From Planctomycetota bacterium (GTDB lineage: Bacteria; Planctomycetota; UBA1135; UBA2386), in contig OZ245006.1 in NCBI GenBank assembly GCA_965223545.1, positions 4,800,001-4,864,000 of the forward strand: DNA of 64,000 bases. The letters are read 5' to 3'. Positions 25,304 to 62,761 of this stretch are shown piece by piece; the stretch's first letter is position 1; each line of letters starts with the position of its first letter. Position numbers and translations under genes: made by a program. The notes beneath the pieces are model-generated. The model searched no databases. It was not told where the DNA came from and was given only the letters and a program-made list of their open reading frames with translations.

Positions 25304-26200
25304 TCATTTTCGGGCGTCGAGCTCAGCGCGCACCGATCGGTACACGATCTCCTGGAAGCGATCGGGCTTCATGAACCCCGTGCCCCACGTCGCGTCCCAC
25401 TCGGCCGTGGGCTTTGCCGCCCGCACCTCGTCCAAGGTCTTGCCGTCGCGCACCAGATCGGCGAACCGCGCGTGGATCGTGCCCAGGACCTCGCGGTACT
25501 GCCGCAGCCCATCGCGGTCGGTCAGCTTGCCGTGGCCGGGAATGATCGCCGTCTCGCCGTCGGCGATCTCGAGCACGCGGTCGACGGCGGCGATCAGTCC
25601 GTGCAGAGTGCCCCCGCTGTCGAGATCGATGTAGGGAAAGGCGCCGTTGAAGAACACGTCGCCCATGTGGATCACGTTGCCGCGCCGAAACCACACGATC
25701 GCGTCCCCGTCGGTGTGCGCCGCCGAGACGTGGAAGATCTGCACGTCGTCGCCGTTGAGGTGCAGGGTCACGCCTCCCGCGAACGTCACCACGGGCAGCG
25801 CCTTGCTGTCGCCCGCCGCCCGCTCCCCGCCCTCGGCCAGCTGCTGCGCGGACATGCGCTTGCGCACGTTTTCATGCGCGACGATGACCGCGCCCGCGCG
25901 CCCGAACCGCTCGTTGCCGCCGGTGTGGTCGCCGTGGTGGTGCGTGTTGATCACGAACCGGATCGTAGTGTCCGTCAGCCGGGCAACCGCGGCGCGGATC
26001 TGCGGCACCATCGGCGCGAACTGGTCGTCGATCAAGAACGTCCCGTCCTCGCCGTAGCAGACACCGATGTTGCCGCCGCGCCCCTCGAGCATCGCCACCC
26101 CGTCCCGGATCGGCACGGTGTGAATCCGCGCGTCCCCCTGCGCGACCAACGGAGCGCACACGACCATCGCGACAGCCAGACAACTCGCAGAATGGAACAT
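25304..26200 (-). CDS. MBL-fold metallo-hydrolase (cyclase-like)
   Basis: Signal peptide, NTHHHGDHTGGN, AHTDGD, HMGD, IPGHG. Confidence 0.9.
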   Translation of the reverse strand: MFHSASCLAVAMVVCAPLVAQGDARIHTVPIRDGVAMLEGRGGNIGVCYGEDGTFLIDDQFAPMVPQIRAAVARLTDTTIRFVINTHHHGDHTGGNERFGRAGAVIVAHENVRKRMSAQQLAEGGERAAGDSKALPVVTFAGGVTLHLNGDDVQIFHVSAAHTDGDAIVWFRRGNVIHMGDVFFNGAFPYIDLDSGGTLHGLIAAVDRVLEIADGETAIIPGHGKLTDRDGLRQYREVLGTIHARFADLVRDGKTLDEVRAAKPTAEWDATWGTGFMKPDRFQEIVYRSVRAELDARK

Positions 26201-26299
26201 CCCCGAAGCCTACCGAAAGTACGGAGCCAGTCCTGCCCCGGCAGATTTGTCGGCCCTTCAGGGCAGGAAACTAGCCGCTGAGGAAGGGGGAGGGGAACG

Positions 26300-26464
26300 T
26301 GTGAGGGGCCCGGCAGCTACGCCCCCAATAGCCACTGGAGCACGTTTGCCCCAGAGCCAGTCTGGGTCCGAGTTGGCCATCCTTCACTGGTGAGGGGCAC
26401 GTCGCCGTGCCCACTCCCGCAGGTCAGATTCGTTTGATCGCCGCCTCGGGCCGGGCCCACCACA
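26300..26464 (+). ncRNA. Candidate IS110 bridge RNA (copy 1; limits approximate)
   Basis: Closing stem GGGCCCGGC 26306-14 / GCCGGGCCC 26450-58; hairpins CCCAGA-GCCAG-TCTGGG and GGGCACG-TCGC-CGTGCCC; exact junction matches GAGCCAGTC 26354-62 and CAGGTCAG 26420-27. Confidence 0.7.
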
Positions 26465-26480
26465 ACAATGAGGATGAAGT

Positions 26481-27863
26481 ATGGCTGGGAAGAGCAGAAC
26501 GAGGAAGGGCAAGAAGCCCGCAGCGGAAGTATTGCCAGTCGTGAAGCCCAACGCCGCCGGAATCGACATCGGCAGCCGCGAGCACTGGGTGTGCGCAGCA
26601 GCACCCGACGGCAGTCGTCCGATCAAGCGATTCGGAACGACGACGCCCCAGCTAGAGGCGCTCGCGGACTGGCTGGAGGAGCTCGGAGTGCGATCCGTCG
26701 CGATGGAGAGCACCTATGTCTACTGGATTCCCGTCTACGAGCTACTCGAGTCGAGAGGCTTCGAGGTCATCCTCGCGAATGCCCGCGAGGTGAAGAACGT
26801 GCCGGGCCGCTCCAAGTCCGATGCCAGCGATTGCAGTTGGCTGCAGAAGCTACACACCTATGGCCTCATTCGCGCTTCGTTCCGGCCTCCGAAGGACATC
26901 TGTGCGTTGCGGACCCTGCAACGCCATGCCGCGTCTTTGATCGCGCAGCGCACGCGCCACACGCAGTTGATGCAGCGGTCACTGGATCAGATGAACGTGG
27001 CGATCCATCGCGCGGTAACGGACATCACCGGCAAGACCGGCCTCGCGATCATCCGCGCGATTCTCGCTGGTGAACGCGACCCTCGAGCGCTCGCCAGACT
27101 GCGTGATCCGCGCTGCAAGATCTCCGAGAAGGAGCTCGCGGATCACTTGCAAGGGACCTGGATCGAGGAGCACATCTTCACTCTCGCTTCGGGCTTGCGG
27201 ATGCTCGAGCACACCGACCACGAGATCGAGTCGGTCGAGAAGCGATTGATGGCGATGATCGAGGACCTGCAACCGGAGGAAGCCAAGACGGCCGACGTCC
27301 CCGAGCATCCAGACCCCCGCAAGGAGAGGAGCATCCGAACGAAGGGCGGCCGGGAGCTTCGCGATGCCCTCTGCCGGCTCGTCGGGTGTGATCTCACGCG
27401 AATCGACGGTATCAGCCCGAGCACGGCCATGATCGTGCTCACCGAGGTCGGCTACGACCTCGAAGCTTTCCCGACCGAGAAGCACTTCGTCTCCTGGCTA
27501 CGCCTGTGCCCACGTCAAGCCGTCTCGGGTGGAAAGCGCATCAAGAAGCACCGCAACAACATCGCGGTCAGCAGGATCGCCACGGTCCTCCGGATGGCCG
27601 CCCTGTCCCTCCAACGTACTCAGACAGCTCTCGGCGCACACTTCCGCAAGATCGCCCGCGCGAAGGACGGCAACGTCGCCATCTTTGCCATCGCCCGCAA
27701 ACTGGCCCTGCTCATCTACCGCATGCTGAAGTTCGGCCAGGACTACGTAGACGAAGGCGCCAAGGCCTACGAGGAGCGCTTCACCCAGCGACGCATCGTC
27801 GGACTCCGACAGAACGCTAAATCCCTCGGGTACAAGCTCATACCGATCGCCGAGGCTGGGTGA
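26481..27863 (+). CDS. IS110-family transposase/recombinase (DEDD + Transposase_20), 460 aa
   Basis: GIDIG (D), AMESTYVYW (E), KSDASD (D..D); C-terminal IDGISP..EVG..F.TEKHFVSWLRLCP...SGGK with the catalytic Ser. Confidence 0.96.
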   Translation: MAGKSRTRKGKKPAAEVLPVVKPNAAGIDIGSREHWVCAAAPDGSRPIKRFGTTTPQLEALADWLEELGVRSVAMESTYVYWIPVYELLESRGFEVILANAREVKNVPGRSKSDASDCSWLQKLHTYGLIRASFRPPKDICALRTLQRHAASLIAQRTRHTQLMQRSLDQMNVAIHRAVTDITGKTGLAIIRAILAGERDPRALARLRDPRCKISEKELADHLQGTWIEEHIFTLASGLRMLEHTDHEIESVEKRLMAMIEDLQPEEAKTADVPEHPDPRKERSIRTKGGRELRDALCRLVGCDLTRIDGISPSTAMIVLTEVGYDLEAFPTEKHFVSWLRLCPRQAVSGGKRIKKHRNNIAVSRIATVLRMAALSLQRTQTALGAHFRKIARAKDGNVAIFAIARKLALLIYRMLKFGQDYVDEGAKAYEERFTQRRIVGLRQNAKSLGYKLIPIAEAG

Positions 27864-27871
27864 GTTTCAGG

Positions 27872-28018
27872 TCAGCAGACACCGATGTTGCCGCCGCGCC
27901 CCTCGAGCATCGCCACCCCGTCCCGGATCGGCACGGTGTGAATCCGCGCGTCCCCCTGCGCGACCAACGGAGCGCACACGACCATCGCGACAGCCAGACA
28001 ACTCGCAGAATGGAACAT
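27872..28018 (-). pseudogene. Duplicated 5' fragment (48 codons) of the MBL-fold gene
   Basis: 27874-28048 is identical to 26056-26230; reads MFHSASCL...GNIGVC, then a TGA created by the IS right end. Confidence 0.85.
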
Positions 28019-28048
28019 CCCCGAAGCCTACCGAAAGTACGGAGCCAG
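27874..28048. repeat. Direct duplicate of host segment 26056-26230 between IS copies 1 and 2
   Basis: Exact repeat at offset 1818; begins and ends with AG. Confidence 0.93.
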
Positions 28049-28117
28049 TCCTGCCCCGGCAGATTTGTCGGCCCTTCAGGGCAGGAAACTAGCCGCTGAG
28101 GAAGGGGGAGGGGAACG

Positions 28118-28282
28118 TGTGAGGGGCCCGGCAGCTACGCCCCCAATAGCCACTGGAGCACGTTTGCCCCAGAGCCAGTCTGGGTCCGAGTTGGCCATCC
28201 TTCACTGGTGAGGGGCACGTCGCCGTGCCCACTCCCGCAGGTCAGATTCGTTTGATCGCCGCCTCGGGCCGGGCCCACCACA
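28118..28282 (+). ncRNA. Candidate IS110 bridge RNA (copy 2)
   Basis: Same sequence as 26300-26464. Confidence 0.7.
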
Positions 28283-28298
28283 ACAATGAGGATGAAGT

Positions 28299-29681
28299 AT
28301 GGCTGGGAAGAGCAGAACGAGGAAGGGCAAGAAGCCCGCAGCGGAAGTATTGCCAGTCGTGAAGCCCAACGCCGCCGGAATCGACATCGGCAGCCGCGAG
28401 CACTGGGTGTGCGCAGCAGCACCCGACGGCAGTCGTCCGATCAAGCGATTCGGAACGACGACGCCCCAGCTAGAGGCGCTCGCGGACTGGCTGGAGGAGC
28501 TCGGAGTGCGATCCGTCGCGATGGAGAGCACCTATGTCTACTGGATTCCCGTCTACGAGCTACTCGAGTCGAGAGGCTTCGAGGTCATCCTCGCGAATGC
28601 CCGCGAGGTGAAGAACGTGCCGGGCCGCTCCAAGTCCGATGCCAGCGATTGCAGTTGGCTGCAGAAGCTACACACCTATGGCCTCATTCGCGCTTCGTTC
28701 CGGCCTCCGAAGGACATCTGTGCGTTGCGGACCCTGCAACGCCATGCCGCGTCTTTGATCGCGCAGCGCACGCGCCACACGCAGTTGATGCAGCGGTCAC
28801 TGGATCAGATGAACGTGGCGATCCATCGCGCGGTAACGGACATCACCGGCAAGACCGGCCTCGCGATCATCCGCGCGATTCTCGCTGGTGAACGCGACCC
28901 TCGAGCGCTCGCCAGACTGCGTGATCCGCGCTGCAAGATCTCCGAGAAGGAGCTCGCGGATCACTTGCAAGGGACCTGGATCGAGGAGCACATCTTCACT
29001 CTCGCTTCGGGCTTGCGGATGCTCGAGCACACCGACCACGAGATCGAGTCGGTCGAGAAGCGATTGATGGCGATGATCGAGGACCTGCAACCGGAGGAAG
29101 CCAAGACGGCCGACGTCCCCGAGCATCCAGACCCCCGCAAGGAGAGGAGCATCCGAACGAAGGGCGGCCGGGAGCTTCGCGATGCCCTCTGCCGGCTCGT
29201 CGGGTGTGATCTCACGCGAATCGACGGTATCAGCCCGAGCACGGCCATGATCGTGCTCACCGAGGTCGGCTACGACCTCGAAGCTTTCCCGACCGAGAAG
29301 CACTTCGTCTCCTGGCTACGCCTGTGCCCACGTCAAGCCGTCTCGGGTGGAAAGCGCATCAAGAAGCACCGCAACAACATCGCGGTCAGCAGGATCGCCA
29401 CGGTCCTCCGGATGGCCGCCCTGTCCCTCCAACGTACTCAGACAGCTCTCGGCGCACACTTCCGCAAGATCGCCCGCGCGAAGGACGGCAACGTCGCCAT
29501 CTTTGCCATCGCCCGCAAACTGGCCCTGCTCATCTACCGCATGCTGAAGTTCGGCCAGGACTACGTAGACGAAGGCGCCAAGGCCTACGAGGAGCGCTTC
29601 ACCCAGCGACGCATCGTCGGACTCCGACAGAACGCTAAATCCCTCGGGTACAAGCTCATACCGATCGCCGAGGCTGGGTGA
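28299..29681 (+). CDS. IS110-family transposase/recombinase
   Basis: Translation identical to 26481..27863. Confidence 0.96.
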   Translation: MAGKSRTRKGKKPAAEVLPVVKPNAAGIDIGSREHWVCAAAPDGSRPIKRFGTTTPQLEALADWLEELGVRSVAMESTYVYWIPVYELLESRGFEVILANAREVKNVPGRSKSDASDCSWLQKLHTYGLIRASFRPPKDICALRTLQRHAASLIAQRTRHTQLMQRSLDQMNVAIHRAVTDITGKTGLAIIRAILAGERDPRALARLRDPRCKISEKELADHLQGTWIEEHIFTLASGLRMLEHTDHEIESVEKRLMAMIEDLQPEEAKTADVPEHPDPRKERSIRTKGGRELRDALCRLVGCDLTRIDGISPSTAMIVLTEVGYDLEAFPTEKHFVSWLRLCPRQAVSGGKRIKKHRNNIAVSRIATVLRMAALSLQRTQTALGAHFRKIARAKDGNVAIFAIARKLALLIYRMLKFGQDYVDEGAKAYEERFTQRRIVGLRQNAKSLGYKLIPIAEAG

Positions 29682-29712
29682 GTTTCAGGTCAGGCTCCGT
29701 TTCATCACCTTG

Positions 29713-40748: not shown

Positions 40749-40808
40749 CGAGCGCACGGAGAGTTTCTGGCACGACGAACGGAGTCCGGCTCGATTCTCT
40801 CGGCGCAC

Positions 40809-40836
40809 GTACGGAGCCAGGCTCCGATTCATCACC
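40809..40836 (+). other. Empty IS110 target site GTACGGAGCC-AG-GCTCCGATTCATCACC
   Basis: Matches the reconstructed pre-insertion site of copy 3 (28/28) and of copies 1/2 (27/28); core AG at 40819-40820. Confidence 0.85.
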
Positions 40837-40875
40837 CGGCGCCGCCGGGTGATGAATCGGAGCCTGACCTGAAAC

Positions 40876-42258
40876 TCACCCAGCCTCGGCGATCGGTATG
40901 AGCTTGTACCCGAGGGATTTAGCGTTCTGTCGGAGTCCGACGATGCGTCGCTGGGTGAAGCGCTCCTCGTAGGCCTTGGCGCCTTCGTCTACGTAGTCCT
41001 GGCCGAACTTCAGCATGCGGTAGATGAGCAGGGCCAGTTTGCGGGCGATGGCAAAGATGGCGACGTTGCCGTCCTTCGCGCGGGCGATCTTGCGGAAGTG
41101 TGCGCCGAGAGCTGTCTGAGTACGTTGGAGGGACAGGGCGGCCATCCGGAGGACCGTGGCGATCCTGCTGACCGCGATGTTGTTGCGGTGCTTCTTGATG
41201 CGCTTTCCACCCGAGACGGCTTGACGTGGGCACAGGCGTAGCCAGGAGACGAAGTGCTTCTCGGTCGGGAAAGCTTCGAGGTCGTAGCCGACCTCGGTGA
41301 GCACGATCATGGCCGTGCTCGGGCTGATACCGTCGATTCGCGTGAGATCACACCCGACGAGCCGGCAGAGGGCATCGCGAAGCTCCCGGCCGCCCTTCGT
41401 TCGGATGCTCCTCTCCTTGCGGGGGTCTGGATGCTCGGGGACGTCGGCCGTCTTGGCTTCCTCCGGTTGCAGGTCCTCGATCATCGCCATCAATCGCTTC
41501 TCGACCGACTCGATCTCGTGGTCGGTGTGCTCGAGCATCCGCAAGCCCGAAGCGAGAGTGAAGATGTGCTCCTCGATCCAGGTCCCTTGCAAGTGATCCG
41601 CGAGCTCCTTCTCGGAGATCTTGCAGCGCGGATCACGCAGTCTGGCGAGCGCTCGAGGGTCGCGTTCACCAGCGAGAATCGCGCGGATGATCGCGAGGCC
41701 GGTCTTGCCGGTGATGTCCGTTACCGCGCGATGGATCGCCACGTTCATCTGATCCAGTGACCGCTGCATCAACTGCGTGTGGCGCGTGCGCTGCGCGATC
41801 AAAGACGCGGCATGGCGTTGCAGGGTCCGCAACGCACAGATGTCCTTCGGAGGCCGGAACGAAGCGCGAATGAGGCCATAGGTGTGTAGCTTCTGCAGCC
41901 AACTGCAATCGCTGGCATCGGACTTGGAGCGGCCCGGCACGTTCTTCACCTCGCGGGCATTCGCGAGGATGACCTCGAAGCCTCTCGACTCGAGTAGCTC
42001 GTAGACGGGAATCCAGTAGACATAGGTGCTCTCCATCGCGACGGATCGCACTCCGAGCTCCTCCAGCCAGTCCGCGAGCGCCTCTAGCTGGGGCGTCGTC
42101 GTTCCGAATCGCTTGATCGGACGACTGCCGTCGGGTGCTGCTGCGCACACCCAGTGCTCGCGGCTGCCGATGTCGATTCCGGCGGCGTTGGGCTTCACGA
42201 CTGGCAATACTTCCGCTGCGGGCTTCTTGCCCTTCCTCGTTCTGCTCTTCCCAGCCAT
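40876..42258 (-). CDS. IS110-family transposase/recombinase
   Basis: Translation identical to the other two copies. Confidence 0.96.
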   Translation of the reverse strand: MAGKSRTRKGKKPAAEVLPVVKPNAAGIDIGSREHWVCAAAPDGSRPIKRFGTTTPQLEALADWLEELGVRSVAMESTYVYWIPVYELLESRGFEVILANAREVKNVPGRSKSDASDCSWLQKLHTYGLIRASFRPPKDICALRTLQRHAASLIAQRTRHTQLMQRSLDQMNVAIHRAVTDITGKTGLAIIRAILAGERDPRALARLRDPRCKISEKELADHLQGTWIEEHIFTLASGLRMLEHTDHEIESVEKRLMAMIEDLQPEEAKTADVPEHPDPRKERSIRTKGGRELRDALCRLVGCDLTRIDGISPSTAMIVLTEVGYDLEAFPTEKHFVSWLRLCPRQAVSGGKRIKKHRNNIAVSRIATVLRMAALSLQRTQTALGAHFRKIARAKDGNVAIFAIARKLALLIYRMLKFGQDYVDEGAKAYEERFTQRRIVGLRQNAKSLGYKLIPIAEAG

Positions 42259-42274
42259 ACTTCATCCTCATTGT

Positions 42275-42439
42275 TGTGGTGGGCCCGGCCCGAGGCGGCG
42301 ATCAAACGAATCTGACCTGCGGGAGTGGGCACGGCGACGTGCCCCTCACCAGTGAAGGATGGCCAACTCGGACCCAGACTGGCTCTGGGGCAAACGTGCT
42401 CCAGTGGCTATTGGGGGCGTAGCTGCCGGGCCCCTCACA
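42275..42439 (-). ncRNA. Candidate IS110 bridge RNA (copy 3)
   Basis: Reverse complement of 26300-26464. Confidence 0.7.
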
Positions 42440-42574
42440 CGTTCCCCTCCCCCTTCCTCAGCGGCTAGTTTCCTGCCCTGAAGGGCCGACAAATCTGCCG
42501 GGGCAGGACTGGCTCCGTACGTGCGCCGAGAAAACGAACCGGACTCCGTTCGTCACGCGCCAGGAACTCTCCGT

Positions 42575-46786: not shown

Positions 46787-48538
46787 ATGCTACGCACCGC
46801 CCTCGTCTTGCTGGTCGGCAGCTGTGCCGTCGCGCAGTCGCCATCGTTGTTGCTCAACGTCAACCCGACGACCAACCCGCAGTTCGGCTTTCACTCATCG
46901 TTCCCGCAAGACGGCGTCGACCTGTACGGCACCGCCTTGTTCACCGCGGTCGACGGGACGTCGGGGCGCGAGCCCTGGCGCACCGATGGTACCGCCGCGG
47001 GGACCTTCTTGCTGCGCGACATTCGCGTCGGACAGCCGCCGTTCACCAACAACTACAGCTCCGACCCGACCGGTTTTGCGGTGTTCGAGGATCGAGCGTA
47101 CTTCTTCGCCACGGACGGTGGGGGCCGCGGTCTGTGGACCACCGATGGCACGACCGCCGGCACGACGTTGGTCGCGCCCGGGATCTCGGGGGCCCAGCTC
47201 ACGCCGTTCGGCGACCGCATGCTGTTCGCGGGAGACGACGGCAACACCGGGGTCGAGCTGTGGCGCACCGACGGCACCGCCGCGAACACCGCCTTGGTGG
47301 TCGATTTGTGGCCGGGGCGCTGCGCCAAGTTCCAGGAGCCGCACAACGGGAGTCCATCGTTTCTGACCCCGCTGTCGGGATCGGTCTTCTTCGTCGCCAA
47401 CGACGGGCAGCGCGGTCTCGAGCTGTGGCGCACGGATGGCACCGCCGCCGGGACCGTCGTCCTCGACCTGGTGCCCGGCAGCACCGGCTCGGCGCCGCGC
47501 GATTTGGTCGTCTTCGAGGGGGCGCTCTGGTTCGCGGCGCGGCACCCGATTCTGGGCGAGGAGCTGTGGCGCAGCGATGGCACCGCGGCGGGGACGGCGG
47601 TGTTCGCCGACTTGGTCGCTGGCGGCAGCTCGCTGCCCCGGCAGCTGACGGTCGCGGGCGGACAGTTGTTCTTTGTCGCTTCGACGCCGGCAAACGGCAC
47701 CGAGTTGTGGGTGACCGACGGCTCCGCCGGTGGGACACGGCTCGTGCGCGACGTGATGCCGGGGGTCTTCAGCGGCAACCCGGACTCGCTCGCGGCCGGC
47801 GCGGGCAAGTTGCTGTTCCGCGTCAACGATCCGGCGATCGGGCGCGAGCCCTGGGCGTCGGACGGCACCGCCGCCGGCACCGTGCCGCTGGGCGACCTGG
47901 CGCCGGGAACTGCCGATTCGACCAACGCGTCGCGACCGATGCGGTTCGTTGCGACGGGTTCCCGCCGCGCGTGGTTTCGGGCCTGGCAGCAGCCGTACCA
48001 ACCGACGCTGTGGGTGACCGATGGCACTCCGGCGGGCACCCGCGTCGTGACCTCTCTGAGCTCGGGCAACCCCAACAACTCACCCGAGCTCCTCATGTTG
48101 GCCGACGGCAAGCTCTTGTTTGCCGCCGCCGACGCGCAGAACGGCGTCGAGCCGTGGCTGCTCGATCCCGGTGCGACCGCCCACCCGGTCGGGCACGGCT
48201 GCGGTCTGCCCGCGGCGGCGCTGTTGGGCGCGGACCCGGTGCTGGGCGCGGTGATGCCGCTGCGCGGCACCGCGGCGCCGAACCGCGCGCTCGCCGTCGT
48301 GCTCGGTGACGTGCCTGCGCCGGTGCGTGTGCTGCGCCCCGGCTGCGCCTGGGCGCTGCGCTTGCCGGGAGCCGTCGCGCTGACCGCGGCGCCGGTGATT
48401 GCCGGCACTTGGTCGGCGTCGCTCCCGTTGCCCCAGCTGCCCGCGCTGTCGGGCCTGCGCGTCGACCTGCAAGCGGTGGTCGCCGGGGGAGTCGGGTTCG
48501 ACGTCAGCAATCCCCTGGCCTTGCAACTCGGTCGCTGA
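46787..48538 (+). CDS. ELWxxDGT-repeat secreted protein with shared C-terminal module
   Basis: Repeated G.E[LP]W.[TS]DGT.AGT motifs; signal peptide. Confidence 0.92.
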   Translation: MLRTALVLLVGSCAVAQSPSLLLNVNPTTNPQFGFHSSFPQDGVDLYGTALFTAVDGTSGREPWRTDGTAAGTFLLRDIRVGQPPFTNNYSSDPTGFAVFEDRAYFFATDGGGRGLWTTDGTTAGTTLVAPGISGAQLTPFGDRMLFAGDDGNTGVELWRTDGTAANTALVVDLWPGRCAKFQEPHNGSPSFLTPLSGSVFFVANDGQRGLELWRTDGTAAGTVVLDLVPGSTGSAPRDLVVFEGALWFAARHPILGEELWRSDGTAAGTAVFADLVAGGSSLPRQLTVAGGQLFFVASTPANGTELWVTDGSAGGTRLVRDVMPGVFSGNPDSLAAGAGKLLFRVNDPAIGREPWASDGTAAGTVPLGDLAPGTADSTNASRPMRFVATGSRRAWFRAWQQPYQPTLWVTDGTPAGTRVVTSLSSGNPNNSPELLMLADGKLLFAAADAQNGVEPWLLDPGATAHPVGHGCGLPAAALLGADPVLGAVMPLRGTAAPNRALAVVLGDVPAPVRVLRPGCAWALRLPGAVALTAAPVIAGTWSASLPLPQLPALSGLRVDLQAVVAGGVGFDVSNPLALQLGR

Positions 48539-60990: not shown

Positions 60991-61589
60991 TCAGCGCGGC
61001 CACGGCCGCAACCAAACTCGGATGCCGCTTTTTCCCGGAGCGGCTTGGAAGGTCCGACCCATCCGCCGCCGCGCTGAGCGCAGACGCCAGTGTTGTCCTC
61101 GAGCCTCCGGGAGCTGCGTTGTCGAAGTTCCAGCGACAACGAGCCTTCCGAAAGGTTGTCGCCGCGCGAAGATTTGCGGACCCTGAGGCTCAGCGCGGCC
61201 ACGACCGCAACCAAATTCGGATGCCGCTCTCGCCGGAACGGTTTGGAAGGCCGGACCCATCCGCCGCCGCGCTGAGCCAGGAGGCACTGTCTCTCCGAGC
61301 CTCCGGCGCCGCGGCGACGTTGCCATGGCAGCGGCGTCGCCTCGAGAATGTTGTCGCCGCTCGACGATTCGTGGCGCCGGAGGCTCAGCGCGGCCGAGGC
61401 CGCAACCAAACACGGAGCATTCCGCGTCCCGAGCGTCGGTCGCGGGTCCCGCGGTCGCCGGCGGCCGCGCTGAGCCCAGAGGCCAGTGTTGTCTTCGAGC
61501 CTCCGGGAGTTGCGGTATCGAAGTCCCGGCGACGACGGGCCTTCCGAAAGGTTGTTGCCGCTCGAACGTTCTCGGACCCTGAGGCTCAG
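60991..61589. repeat. Three ~198-bp tandem units with nested inverted repeats
   Basis: Units start TCAGCGCGGCC.(c/a)G.CCGCAACCAAA at 60991, 61190 and 61385 (next TCAG at 61586); each has TCAGCGCGGC/GCCGCGCTGA and GAGCCTC/GAGGCTC inverted repeats. Confidence 0.88.
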
Positions 61590-62761
61590 AACAGCCCTAC
61601 GCAGCTCGCGTTCGAGAGGAGCCCCTGCCCCGTCGAGGCATCGATCACCAGTGCCTGCACGCTCAGGATCTCTTCGCGGGGAAAGAGCGTCGAGCTGATC
61701 GGCACGTCGATCTGCACGGGTTGGCCAGCCGACACCGGCCCCGCGAACAGCACGGCGTGGTTCGCCTCGATCCAGAGCGGGCCCAGCTGGGTCCAGCGCA
61801 GCGGTCCGGGAACGCTGGTCACGACGATGGCGTTGCCGGTGGCGTGCGGCCACAGGGTGTTGTTCATCGTGTTGCCGAGAGAGGCGCCGTTGCTGACCAG
61901 TGCTGGAAACGCCAGTGGAATTTGCACCGCATACTGCACGATGCCGATGGGCACGGTCGGGTTTCTCACCAGAATGGTGTTTCCAGTGGCGACGATGGCC
62001 GGTTCGAACAGCGTAGGCACGCACGGCCGCAACAAGCCACACGACAGTCCTGCCCGAATGCTGCGTGCCCCGCTACCGGTGACGAGGACGATGCTCGCGT
62101 CGAGCATCATGGCCGATTCTTCAGTGCCGAGTGTGCCATTGTGTCCGAACACGTCGGTCTCGCTGATCGCGATGAAGCTGTTGCGAGCCTTGAAGCCGAT
62201 CGTGTTCGAGAAGCCGTTGGCGATCGCCTGCAGGGAGCAGTTGGTGATGTGGACTTCGCTCCCGTCGATGTCGATGGGCCAGATGTCCGTGATCGCGCTC
62301 GAGTTGAGGCTCACCCATTTGCTGTTTCGGATGCTCACCACCGGCCCGTTGATAAAGAACAGTGTCGGCCCGCGCAGGTGACTCAGGCGATCGATCACGA
62401 CCTGGCCGTCGCAGTCGGCGACGGCGAGAACTTTCATCGCCAAGGGTGTTGCTCCTGTGCCCAGGCCGACGATCGAGAATCGTTCGGTGGCCGGAAGTCC
62501 AACGATGCGGACTGTCTGACCGGAACCAAGCCGAACACCCGGTTCGCATTGCACGTTGATGCCGGCGCTCGTGGTCGCGCCGCTGTAGGTGCCGGTGCGA
62601 ACCAGGATCTTGTCGCCGCTGGTCGCCGCCGCGAACGCGGGCGGGAGGTCGGTGAAGGCGGCGCCCGGCCCGCCGGCGGCATCCACGATCCAGGTGGTTT
62701 GCGCGCTCAGCGGCGCGGAGAGCGCCACGGTGATGGCCGTGGGGACCAGAAACCACTGCAT
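61586..62761 (-). CDS. Secreted hypothetical protein (paralog of 31014..32213) with shared C-terminal module
   Basis: LSAQTTWIVDAAGGPGAAFTDLPPA..GD.ILVRTGTY; C-terminus SVQALVID..LSNA. Confidence 0.8.
   Translation of the reverse strand: MQWFLVPTAITVALSAPLSAQTTWIVDAAGGPGAAFTDLPPAFAAATSGDKILVRTGTYSGATTSAGINVQCEPGVRLGSGQTVRIVGLPATERFSIVGLGTGATPLAMKVLAVADCDGQVVIDRLSHLRGPTLFFINGPVVSIRNSKWVSLNSSAITDIWPIDIDGSEVHITNCSLQAIANGFSNTIGFKARNSFIAISETDVFGHNGTLGTEESAMMLDASIVLVTGSGARSIRAGLSCGLLRPCVPTLFEPAIVATGNTILVRNPTVPIGIVQYAVQIPLAFPALVSNGASLGNTMNNTLWPHATGNAIVVTSVPGPLRWTQLGPLWIEANHAVLFAGPVSAGQPVQIDVPISSTLFPREEILSVQALVIDASTGQGLLSNASCVGLF

What the first reader, a model, noticed from the sequence alone, without database searches (positions are those of the whole stretch)
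40756..42574. IS110 inserts into a conserved hairpin motif inside a long palindrome; an empty twin site is adjacent
Seen: the reconstructed pre-insertion sites of the two independent loci are GTACGGAGCC-AG-GCTCCG(T/A)TTCATCACC, 27 of 28 identical. The core sits in the loop of a mini-hairpin CGGAGC-CAG-GCTCCG. At copy 3 the site is part of one arm of an intergenic palindrome (43 bp perfect, ~85 bp total per arm) between convergent genes, and the other arm holds an intact unoccupied target (core 40819-20). Established: IS621 targets REP sequences. Inference: the 28-bp conservation is longer than a guide needs, so the target is probably a dispersed REP/MITE-like repeat family used as a safe intergenic landing site. 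The empty site independently confirms the element boundaries and shows there is no true target duplication.
Basis: partly seen in the sequence, partly recalled or inferred. Interest (0 to 1): 0.75.

Follow-up and report, generated by a model that had tools for sequence, protein, structure and literature searches.

The report
RNA-guided jumping gene parasitising hairpin repeats
An RNA-guided jumping gene always lands in the loop of a small DNA hairpin that belongs to another mobile-DNA system of the same bacterium; this is a known safe-landing strategy, seen here with a different kind of repeat and an unusually arranged guide RNA.

Summary
Observation confirmed. The 1,643-bp IS110 has 23 full copies in the genome; 22 sit in the loop of one repeat, split at an AG core. 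The repeat family has 122 units (22 occupied), mostly just after stop codons. The same repeat flanks, inverted, a 333-aa Y1/HUH transposase gene (TIRYT/TnpA subclass 2.1-like), and both of those copies are occupied. The copy-3 palindrome nests this repeat pair inside a sister family B, which has its own Y1 gene and is never hit. Homologue covariation gives a 5-nt+AG left guide (26 of 30 vs 1.1 expected) and a weak 3-4-nt right guide; that 10-mer is 87% repeat-specific, so the 28-bp likeness is repeat conservation. The closest homologue (78%) has retuned guides and hits its own host's Y1-flanking repeat. The empty site fixes the boundaries but cannot by itself exclude a 2-bp duplication. Closest known: ISPpu9, IS621, ISPpu10, ISPa11. 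Not found in the papers searched: GTAC-tagged TIR targets, IS1111-type guide order in an upstream RNA, and a donor-loop segment that covaries with DNA 24-31 bp inside the left end.

The parts
40866..42508 (-). IS110-family element, 1,643 bp, one of 23 genomic copies (99.4-100% identical)
40876..42258 (-). 460-aa DEDD recombinase (D29, E76, D114, D117; S349-G350)
   Evidence: PF01548 + PF02371; NF033542 at 248 bits, cut-off 140; aligned to IS621; motif positions
42259..42508 (-). 250-nt upstream non-coding end carrying the predicted bridge RNA (outer stem 42423-42433 with 42281-42294)
   Evidence: expression not shown
42379..42385 (-). Left target guide GAGCCAG (5 nt + core)
   Evidence: covaries with the left flank in 26 of 30 NCRs vs 1.1 for swapped guides
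42407..42409 (-). Short right target guide AGC (complement of target +1..+3), just 5' of a conserved CA(C/T)TGG
   Evidence: 57 of 136 Watson-Crick pairs vs 31 expected, 0 of 3000 permutations; five other offsets null
42312..42319 (-). Donor guide CAGGTCAG matching the right end + core
42353..42360 (-). Donor-loop 5' segment that covaries as a direct match with the distal left-end segment
42479..42485 (-). Distal left-end segment (nt 24-30 of the element), just past a small hairpin
42468..42472 (-). Left subterminal 5-bp inverted repeat GAAAC, 36 nt inside the core
   Evidence: core-to-repeat distance 33-42 nt in the 29 NCRs with a mapped core
40871..40875 (-). Right subterminal 5-bp inverted repeat GTTTC, 5 nt before the core
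40864..40865 (-). AG core, right junction
42509..42510 (-). AG core, left junction
40809..40836 (+). Empty family-A repeat (twin target; core 40819-20)
40848..40863 (-). Right half of the occupied family-A repeat
42511..42520 (-). Left half of the occupied family-A repeat
40777..40802 (+). Family-B repeat (sister family, not targeted), left arm
   Evidence: the same family flanks the second Y1 gene
42527..42551 (-). Family-B repeat, right arm
40756..42574 (.). Whole nested B-A..A-B palindrome, centre 40842, with the IS in the right A unit
   Evidence: the same nest occurs at C1 769.8 kb (empty) and 7651.8 kb (occupied)

Best explanation
This is a recently expanded IS110-family element that finds its site with a bridge RNA encoded in its left end. 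Shown from sequence: the RNA carries a 5-nt+AG guide for the left half of the target, a weak 3-4-nt guide for the right half, and a guide for the element's own right end; the 10-nt address GAGCC-AG-GCT is almost confined to one repeat family. That repeat is the inverted repeat flanking a resident long Y1/HUH transposase gene (TIRtron-like), spread as singles and inverted pairs just after stop codons. Inferred: the Y1 enzyme spreads the repeats; the IS excises or copies out as a circle joined at AG and recombines into the repeat loop, which keeps it out of genes. The IS is thus a parasite of a parasite, and in the closest relative its guides are retuned to that host's version of the repeat. The long palindrome is a nested pair of the two sister repeat families, not something the IS made.
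For: 22 of 23 copies are at the same core and strand. One copy sits in a repeat whose loop is flipped relative to the GTAC tag and follows the AG strand, so the tag is not read. Left guide covariation: 26 of 30 vs 1.1; right guide: 57 of 136 vs 31. Of 126 GAGCCAGGCT sites 110 are repeat units; of 1,936 GAGCCAG sites only those 110 are. Family-B units with one mismatch at -2: 0 of 43 occupied vs 22 of 110, Fisher p=5e-4. The Y1 gene at C1 3914532-3915533 is bracketed by inverted A repeats, both occupied; a second Y1 gene at C1 1729868 is bracketed by B repeats. 13 of 16 homologous Y1 loci in relatives have flanking inverted repeats vs 1 of 240 cross-locus controls; in 4 of 4 genomes tested they are dispersed at 64-106 copies, controls 0. 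The 78%-identical homologue (L041, genome G115) has changed guides, and both of its right ends abut a repeat present 44 times that also flanks that genome's Y1 gene.
Against: No RNA, circle or activity was observed: no RNA run is listed and no circle or empty-allele joint appeared in contigs of 4 runs. The right guide is lax in homologues (42% pairs), and three copies of one homologue have unlike right flanks, so guide pairing alone may not explain 22 of 22. Family B differs from A in stem strength as well as at the guide position, so that control does not separate sequence from structure. Homologues are related, so permutation p-values overstate. Retuning to a Y1 repeat rests on two elements only; none of the other 28 homologue left flanks carried the tag. 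The Y1 proteins score under the NCBIfam RAYT cut-off (63.5 and 57.2 vs 80) and their activity is untested.
Confidence: 0.85

Rival explanations
1. Dual match: guide pairing is needed, but the repeat's hairpin (or the cruciform of an inverted pair) is a second gate, as reported for ISPpu10.
For: Positions +4/+5 are invariant in 22 of 22 sites yet are not paired by the guide. Non-repeat intergenic sites that match the left guide plus +3 are never used: 0 of 40, p=0.001; with +2/+3: 0 of 17, p=0.04. The closest homologue also targets a core-in-loop hairpin. Precedent: 10.64898/2026.03.19.712850.
Against: Only 5 non-repeat intergenic sites carry the full 10-mer, so the genome cannot separate the models (p=0.58). 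Of 24 reconstructed targets only this one has a stem of more than 3 bp closing on the core, so the clade does not need a hairpin. In ISPpu10 the stem is 5' of the core; here it spans the core and would compete with guide pairing.
Confidence: 0.35
2. Targeting is looser than it looks and selection removed the insertions elsewhere.
For: About 88% of the genome is coding by my crude gene model; homologue right flanks are lax.
Against: 236 non-repeat intergenic GAGCCAG sites are all unused, p about 3e-12. Copies are 99.4-100% identical, leaving little time for purging. ISPpu9 inserted at REP-like sites in 12 of 12 fresh events (PMC12288879).
Confidence: 0.07
3. The repeats are footprints or products of the IS110 itself.
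For: The A repeat is abundant only in this genome (142 matches; 1 each in 3 of 90 family genomes), which is also the only one of 61 searched with this IS above 43% identity.
Against: Repeats bracket Y1 genes; family B (123 hits) has no IS; G009, G011 and G040 have 96-106 tag-related repeats and no PF01548 match (90-94% complete).
Confidence: 0.03

Closest known systems
ISPpu9 of Pseudomonas putida (PMC12288879: abstract, sections 4, 13, 14, first part of 18, supplement part 1; PMC8450116: passages)
   Same: IS110 group, long 5' UTR, AG core, inserts in REPs and REP pairs. Same end geometry: its B box has GTTTG, 5 nt, AG; its 43-bp A box has AG, a hairpin, then CAAAC, against GTTTC-N5-AG and AG-N36-GAAAC here.
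   Different: Different repeat type and host; no ssr9-like module was looked for here; the proteins were not compared. The sections read do not map guides in the ISPpu9 RNA.
IS621 (PMC11208160, passages) and ISPpu10 (10.64898/2026.03.19.712850, parts 1-3 of 8)
   Same: Upstream bridge RNA, 2-bp core, REP targets; 144 of 173 IS621 insertions in REPs; ISPpu10 targets 97% intergenic.
   Different: Core CT vs AG here; 328-aa vs 460-aa protein (E 2e-10); guide order reversed; no adjacent right-donor guide found here; ISPpu10's stem-loop lies 5' of the core, here the core is the loop.
IS1111 group, e.g. ISPa11 (PMC11187229: passages and section 6)
   Same: [quoted passage not shown]
   Different: Non-coding region is upstream, inverted repeats are 5 bp (IS1111: 7-17 bp), protein 460 aa (IS1111: 330-350 aa).
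TIRtron/TIRYT (PMC3733652, passages) and TnpA-Y1 subclass 2.1 (10.1101/279083, passages and part 4 of 7)
   Same: Long Y1 protein with HUH, Y---NP and a C-terminal HTH-like part, flanked by inverted repeats that form dispersed families of singles and dimers.
   Different: GTAC tag (0 occurrences of 'gtac' in either main text); no GGGGWSAS motif; Quentin et al. found no REP-like sequences near subclass 2.1 genes. Their supplements and figures were not seen and may list such repeats.

Membership tests
IS110 family | DEDD RuvC-like domain plus C-terminal domain with SG | tested here: met
   PF01548, PF02371; NF033542 above cut-off; D29/E76/D114/D117, S349-G350
IS110 family | Site-specific insertion at a short core, no terminal inverted repeats | tested here: met
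   AG at both ends of 23 of 23 copies; 22 of 23 in one target
IS110 family | Non-coding end with guides covarying with target and donor | tested here: met
IS110 family | RNA expressed and bound by the recombinase | not testable with these tools
   no RNA holder listed
IS110 family | Circular intermediate joined at the core | tested here: inconclusive
   no such joint in contigs of 4 runs; contigs drop rare forms
IS110 group (IS621/ISEc21 type) | Long non-coding region upstream of the gene | tested here: met
   250 nt upstream, 10 nt downstream of the stop
IS110 group (IS621/ISEc21 type) | Bottom-strand match precedes top-strand complement in the target loop | tested here: not met
   right guide at nt 100-102 precedes left guide at nt 124-130; rule from PMC11187229
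IS1111 group | Downstream NCR, 7-17-bp subterminal repeats, 330-350-aa protein | tested here: not met
   upstream NCR, 5-bp repeats, 460 aa
ISPpu9-like subgroup | AG core with A-box/B-box end geometry | tested here: met
   (compared by eye)
ISPpu9-like subgroup | Transposase similarity to ISPpu9 | not tested
   no tool returned the ISPpu9 protein
Canonical REP/RAYT | 5' GT(A/G)G tag at the foot of the hairpin | tested here: not met
   tag is GTAC
Canonical REP/RAYT | High-copy extragenic palindromes, singles and inverted pairs, flanking a single-copy Y1 gene | tested here: met
Canonical REP/RAYT | Protein above the NCBIfam RAYT cut-off | tested here: not met
   63.5 and 57.2 bits vs 80
TIRtron / TnpA-Y1 subclass 2.1 | Y1 core with HUH and Y---NP | tested here: met
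   PF01797 above cut-off; HFH at 60, YIDHNP at 119
TIRtron / TnpA-Y1 subclass 2.1 | C-terminal HTH-like extension | tested here: inconclusive
   Sigma70_r4_2 E 2e-4 and 0.03, both under cut-off
TIRtron / TnpA-Y1 subclass 2.1 | Gene flanked by inverted repeats | tested here: met
   both own genes; 13 of 16 relatives' loci
TIRtron / TnpA-Y1 subclass 2.1 | Phylogenetic placement in subclass 2.1 | not tested
   no reference set at hand

The most novel reading that the evidence does not exclude
This 460-aa IS110 clade uses a differently wired bridge RNA. The target loop has IS1111-type order with a 7-nt and a 3-4-nt guide. The donor loop does not read the DNA next to the core on the left end; it reads a site 24-31 bp inside, beyond a conserved DNA hairpin, on the same strand as the other donor guide (12 distinct sequence types: summed match 75 nt vs 42 by permutation, 0 of 5000). 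A sub-lineage of this clade tracks, by guide retuning, a widespread family of GTAC/ATAC-tagged repeats spread by long Y1-HTH transposases, including the two repeats that bound the Y1 gene itself.
Probability: 0.35. Interest if true: 0.72.

Novelty: new variant of a known kind. Interest (0 to 1): 0.5.

Why it matters
The headline (an IS110 landing in extragenic palindromes) is established. The value lies in three details. (1) One genome holds a natural specificity test: 110 matching repeats, 43 single-mismatch sister repeats and 236 half-matching intergenic sites, which bears on the open question of how short bridge-RNA guides reach high specificity. (2) The covariation maps guides for a long-transposase, ISPpu9-like clade and suggests distal donor recognition, a testable difference from IS621 that would matter for bridge-recombinase engineering. 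(3) It ties abundant GTAC-tagged repeat families to long Y1-HTH transposases, a group for which one survey found no REP-like partners.

Tried and rejected
Reads: no RNA holder listed; laying contigs of 4 runs showed no circle or empty-site joint, which proves nothing either way. First reading of GGAGC at nt 107 as the right guide: rejected, it is a conserved scaffold stem in homologues with other targets. One-sided guide model: dropped after one search found the weak right guide. A right-donor guide complementary to the first bases of the left end: not found in 29 rows. A complement of the donor-loop segment elsewhere in the RNA: weak or absent (4.31 vs 4.04 upstream, 11 of 600 permutations; null downstream). 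A distal match for the target loop: null in 4 tests. Sigma-70 promoter scan: 0 sites (linear form only). Single-sequence folds do not open the guide loops; the loop model comes from the alignment. Vaysset et al. 10.1101/2024.06.21.599552 (part 2 of 5 read) gave nothing specific. Literature searches 'IS110 + TIRtron' and 'bridge RNA + IS110 + Planctomycet' found 0 papers; 'ISPpu9 + bridge RNA' found 7. Earlier-findings look-ups by place and by sequence were empty. The last row of the address table had an offset error and is not used. Rows dropped: of 155 homologue loci plus this one, 83 had the scaffold motif; 46 at 50% identity or more with a guide ending in AG, after 10 mis-anchored rows were set aside, gave 39 distinct NCRs; 30 had enough left flank and 34 enough right flank. 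Host taxonomy was not determined.

Full report
1. Observation. The element spans window 40866-42508 on the minus strand (1,643 bp) with a 460-aa ORF, 250 nt upstream and 10 nt downstream, and AG on both sides. It is an IS110-family recombinase. With the element and one AG removed, the site is a palindrome centred on 40842 with a 44-nt perfect arm and 86/87 nt in all, between convergent genes. The other arm holds an intact target with its core at 40819-20.

2. Genome census. There are 23 full copies, 99.4-100% identical, and one 114-bp fragment. Contig depth in one run was 841 over the element and about 40-50 on the flanks; that run may be the source sample, so it is not independent. The 23rd (window 26231-27873) has a normal left junction, but its right end joins an unrelated AG inside a gene, duplicating 158 bp plus the element. 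Empty targets are common: 85 exact 13-mers against under 1 expected. With up to 2 mismatches there are 122 repeat units (family A), 22 occupied and 100 empty; 113 lie outside my crude gene calls, 72 of those between convergent genes (427 of 3,538 spacers are convergent), and 85 of 109 lie within 30 bp of a stop codon. 27 neighbouring pairs lie within 120 bp.

3. Whose repeat it is. PF01797 finds 14 matches in the genome, two of them full-length. One 333-aa gene (C1 3914532-3915533) is bracketed by inverted family-A repeats, and both carry the IS; the two copies are different variants, so they are separate events. At 18% occupancy this has a chance of about 3%, post hoc. The second gene (C1 1729868, 46% identical) is bracketed by a sister repeat, family B, with 123 hits and no IS. 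The copy-3 palindrome is an A pair nested in a B pair; the same nest recurs twice. Both proteins have HFH and YIDHNP and a weak C-terminal HTH match and fall under the RAYT cut-off. Homologues occur in relatives; 13 of 16 loci examined have flanking inverted repeats against 1 of 240 cross-locus controls, 8 of the 13 starting with GTAC or ATAC plus CG/GG. In the 4 genomes I tested these repeats occur 105, 96, 64 and 106 times, controls 0; three of the four have no IS110 domain match. This fits the TIRtron/TIR repeats of Di Nocera et al. (PMC3733652, passages) and subclass 2.1 of Quentin et al. (10.1101/279083). That the Y1 enzyme spreads the repeats is inference.

4. How the IS finds it. Homologous loci (75, 80) share a scaffold in the upstream end. 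A 5-nt+AG segment matches the left flank over 6 nt or more in 26 of 30 distinct NCRs, against a mean of 1.1 and a maximum of 4 with swapped guides. A second segment matches the element's right end. The 3-4 nt before a conserved CA(C/T)TGG pair with target +1..+4 in 57 of 136 positions against 31 expected; five other offsets were null. Here these guides spell GAGCC-AG-GCT. That 10-mer has 126 sites, 110 of them family-A units; the 7-mer alone has 1,936. Family-B units that differ at -2 are unused (0 of 43 vs 22 of 110, p=5e-4), as are 236 non-repeat intergenic 7-mer sites. One copy entered a repeat with a flipped loop and followed the AG strand. So the guide explains about 10 bp and the repeat explains the rest of the 28. 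Whether the hairpin adds a gate, as for ISPpu10, cannot be settled here: only 5 non-repeat intergenic sites have the full 10-mer, family B also has a weaker stem, and other homologues do not target core-in-loop hairpins.

5. A second case. The closest homologue (78%, L041) has GTGCC in the left guide and TGT in the right guide. In its genome G115 both right ends abut a repeat found 44 times, which begins GTACGG like family A and flanks a 42%-identical Y1 gene. None of the other 28 mapped left flanks has the tag; 5 of 29 are ends of other IS copies. Repeat targeting is therefore a derived habit seen in two elements so far.

6. Unusual wiring. The right guide precedes the left guide, the order reported for IS1111-type RNAs (PMC11187229), although the RNA is upstream. 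No guide complementary to the first bases of the left end was found. Instead the 5' strand of the donor loop is a direct match to a segment 24-31 bp inside the left end, after a small hairpin and before a 5-bp subterminal repeat: mean match 7.0 nt vs 4.2 in 36 NCRs, and 75 vs 42 nt with one NCR for each of 12 sequence types, 0 of 5000 permutations. RNA-DNA pairing at a distal site is my reading; an RNA-RNA switch or antisense regulation (ISPpu9 has an antisense RNA, PMC8450116 passages) remains possible.

7. Comparison. REP targeting by this family is established for IS621, ISPpu9, ISPpu10 and ISPa11. ISPpu9 is closest in end geometry and core; proteins were not compared. Tandem duplications with a one-sided donor match are described in 10.64898/2026.08.14.744561 (passages), and separate transfer of the two junctions in 10.1101/2025.10.25.684509 (part 1 of 5); both fit the odd 23rd copy. 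PMC5581495 (passages) gave background only. Searches found no paper on an IS110 aimed at TIRtron repeats or on distal donor matching; the library lacks most subscription papers, and supplements of the preprints could not be seen. An unchecked AI note (e1-7670569) reports an IS1111-type element in a Y1-gene repeat in another genome.

8. On duplication. The empty site fixes the boundaries. It cannot tell a shared core from a 2-bp duplication; the donor guide ending in AG and the ISPpu9 circles joined at AG favour the shared core.

9. Verdict. Real and well supported; a new variant of a known kind. Interest 0.5, carried by the built-in specificity controls, the retuned relative and the distal donor match.

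Noticed in passing
window 26056-29691: Tandem duplication of 158 bp plus the IS; the first copy's right end joins an unrelated AG inside a minus-strand gene (25304-26209). It looks like a one-sided recombinase event; not checked against reads.
   Followed up: partly
G000 C1 1714945-1718279: Both arms of one inverted repeat pair carry the IS, in the same direction, because one arm has a flipped loop.
   Followed up: yes
G000 C1 3912823-3917190: IS - Y1 gene - IS block with the two IS copies inverted; it could move or invert as a composite. A contig end in run X7 matches the outer flank of the right copy (by eye).
   Followed up: partly
L041 / L246 (G115 C284, just after the IS right end): The twin arm of the repeat pair holds a 9-bp remnant resembling the IS right end between two AG cores.
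   Followed up: no
L044, L123, L138, L145, L151 (left flanks); L126, L139 (right flanks): Several homologues sit next to the ends of other elements of the clade, forming tandem arrays; some have target guides equal to an IS right end.
   Followed up: partly
G000, inverted repeat pairs: In several pairs the symmetry runs 12-33 bp beyond the GTAC tag into flanking DNA; at copy 3 the outer 20 bp are unique sequence. This hints at inverted duplication during repeat spread.
   Followed up: partly
G000, 12 loci such as L004 and L005: A multi-copy short Y1-like ORF family distinct from the two long Y1 genes; L004 and L005 look nearly identical.
   Followed up: no
G000 C1 2860778, 4224717, 5136103: Three copies of another, distant IS110-like frame of 515 aa.
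   Followed up: no
G000, the 23 IS copies: Six sequence variants over 12 variable columns, with mixed 3' ends that suggest recombination or conversion between copies.
   Followed up: no
window 60991-61617: Tandem imperfect repeats of about 198 bp.
   Followed up: no
window 46787-48538: 583-aa ORF with ELWRTDGT-like repeats; family name recalled as ELWxxDGT, not tested.
   Followed up: no
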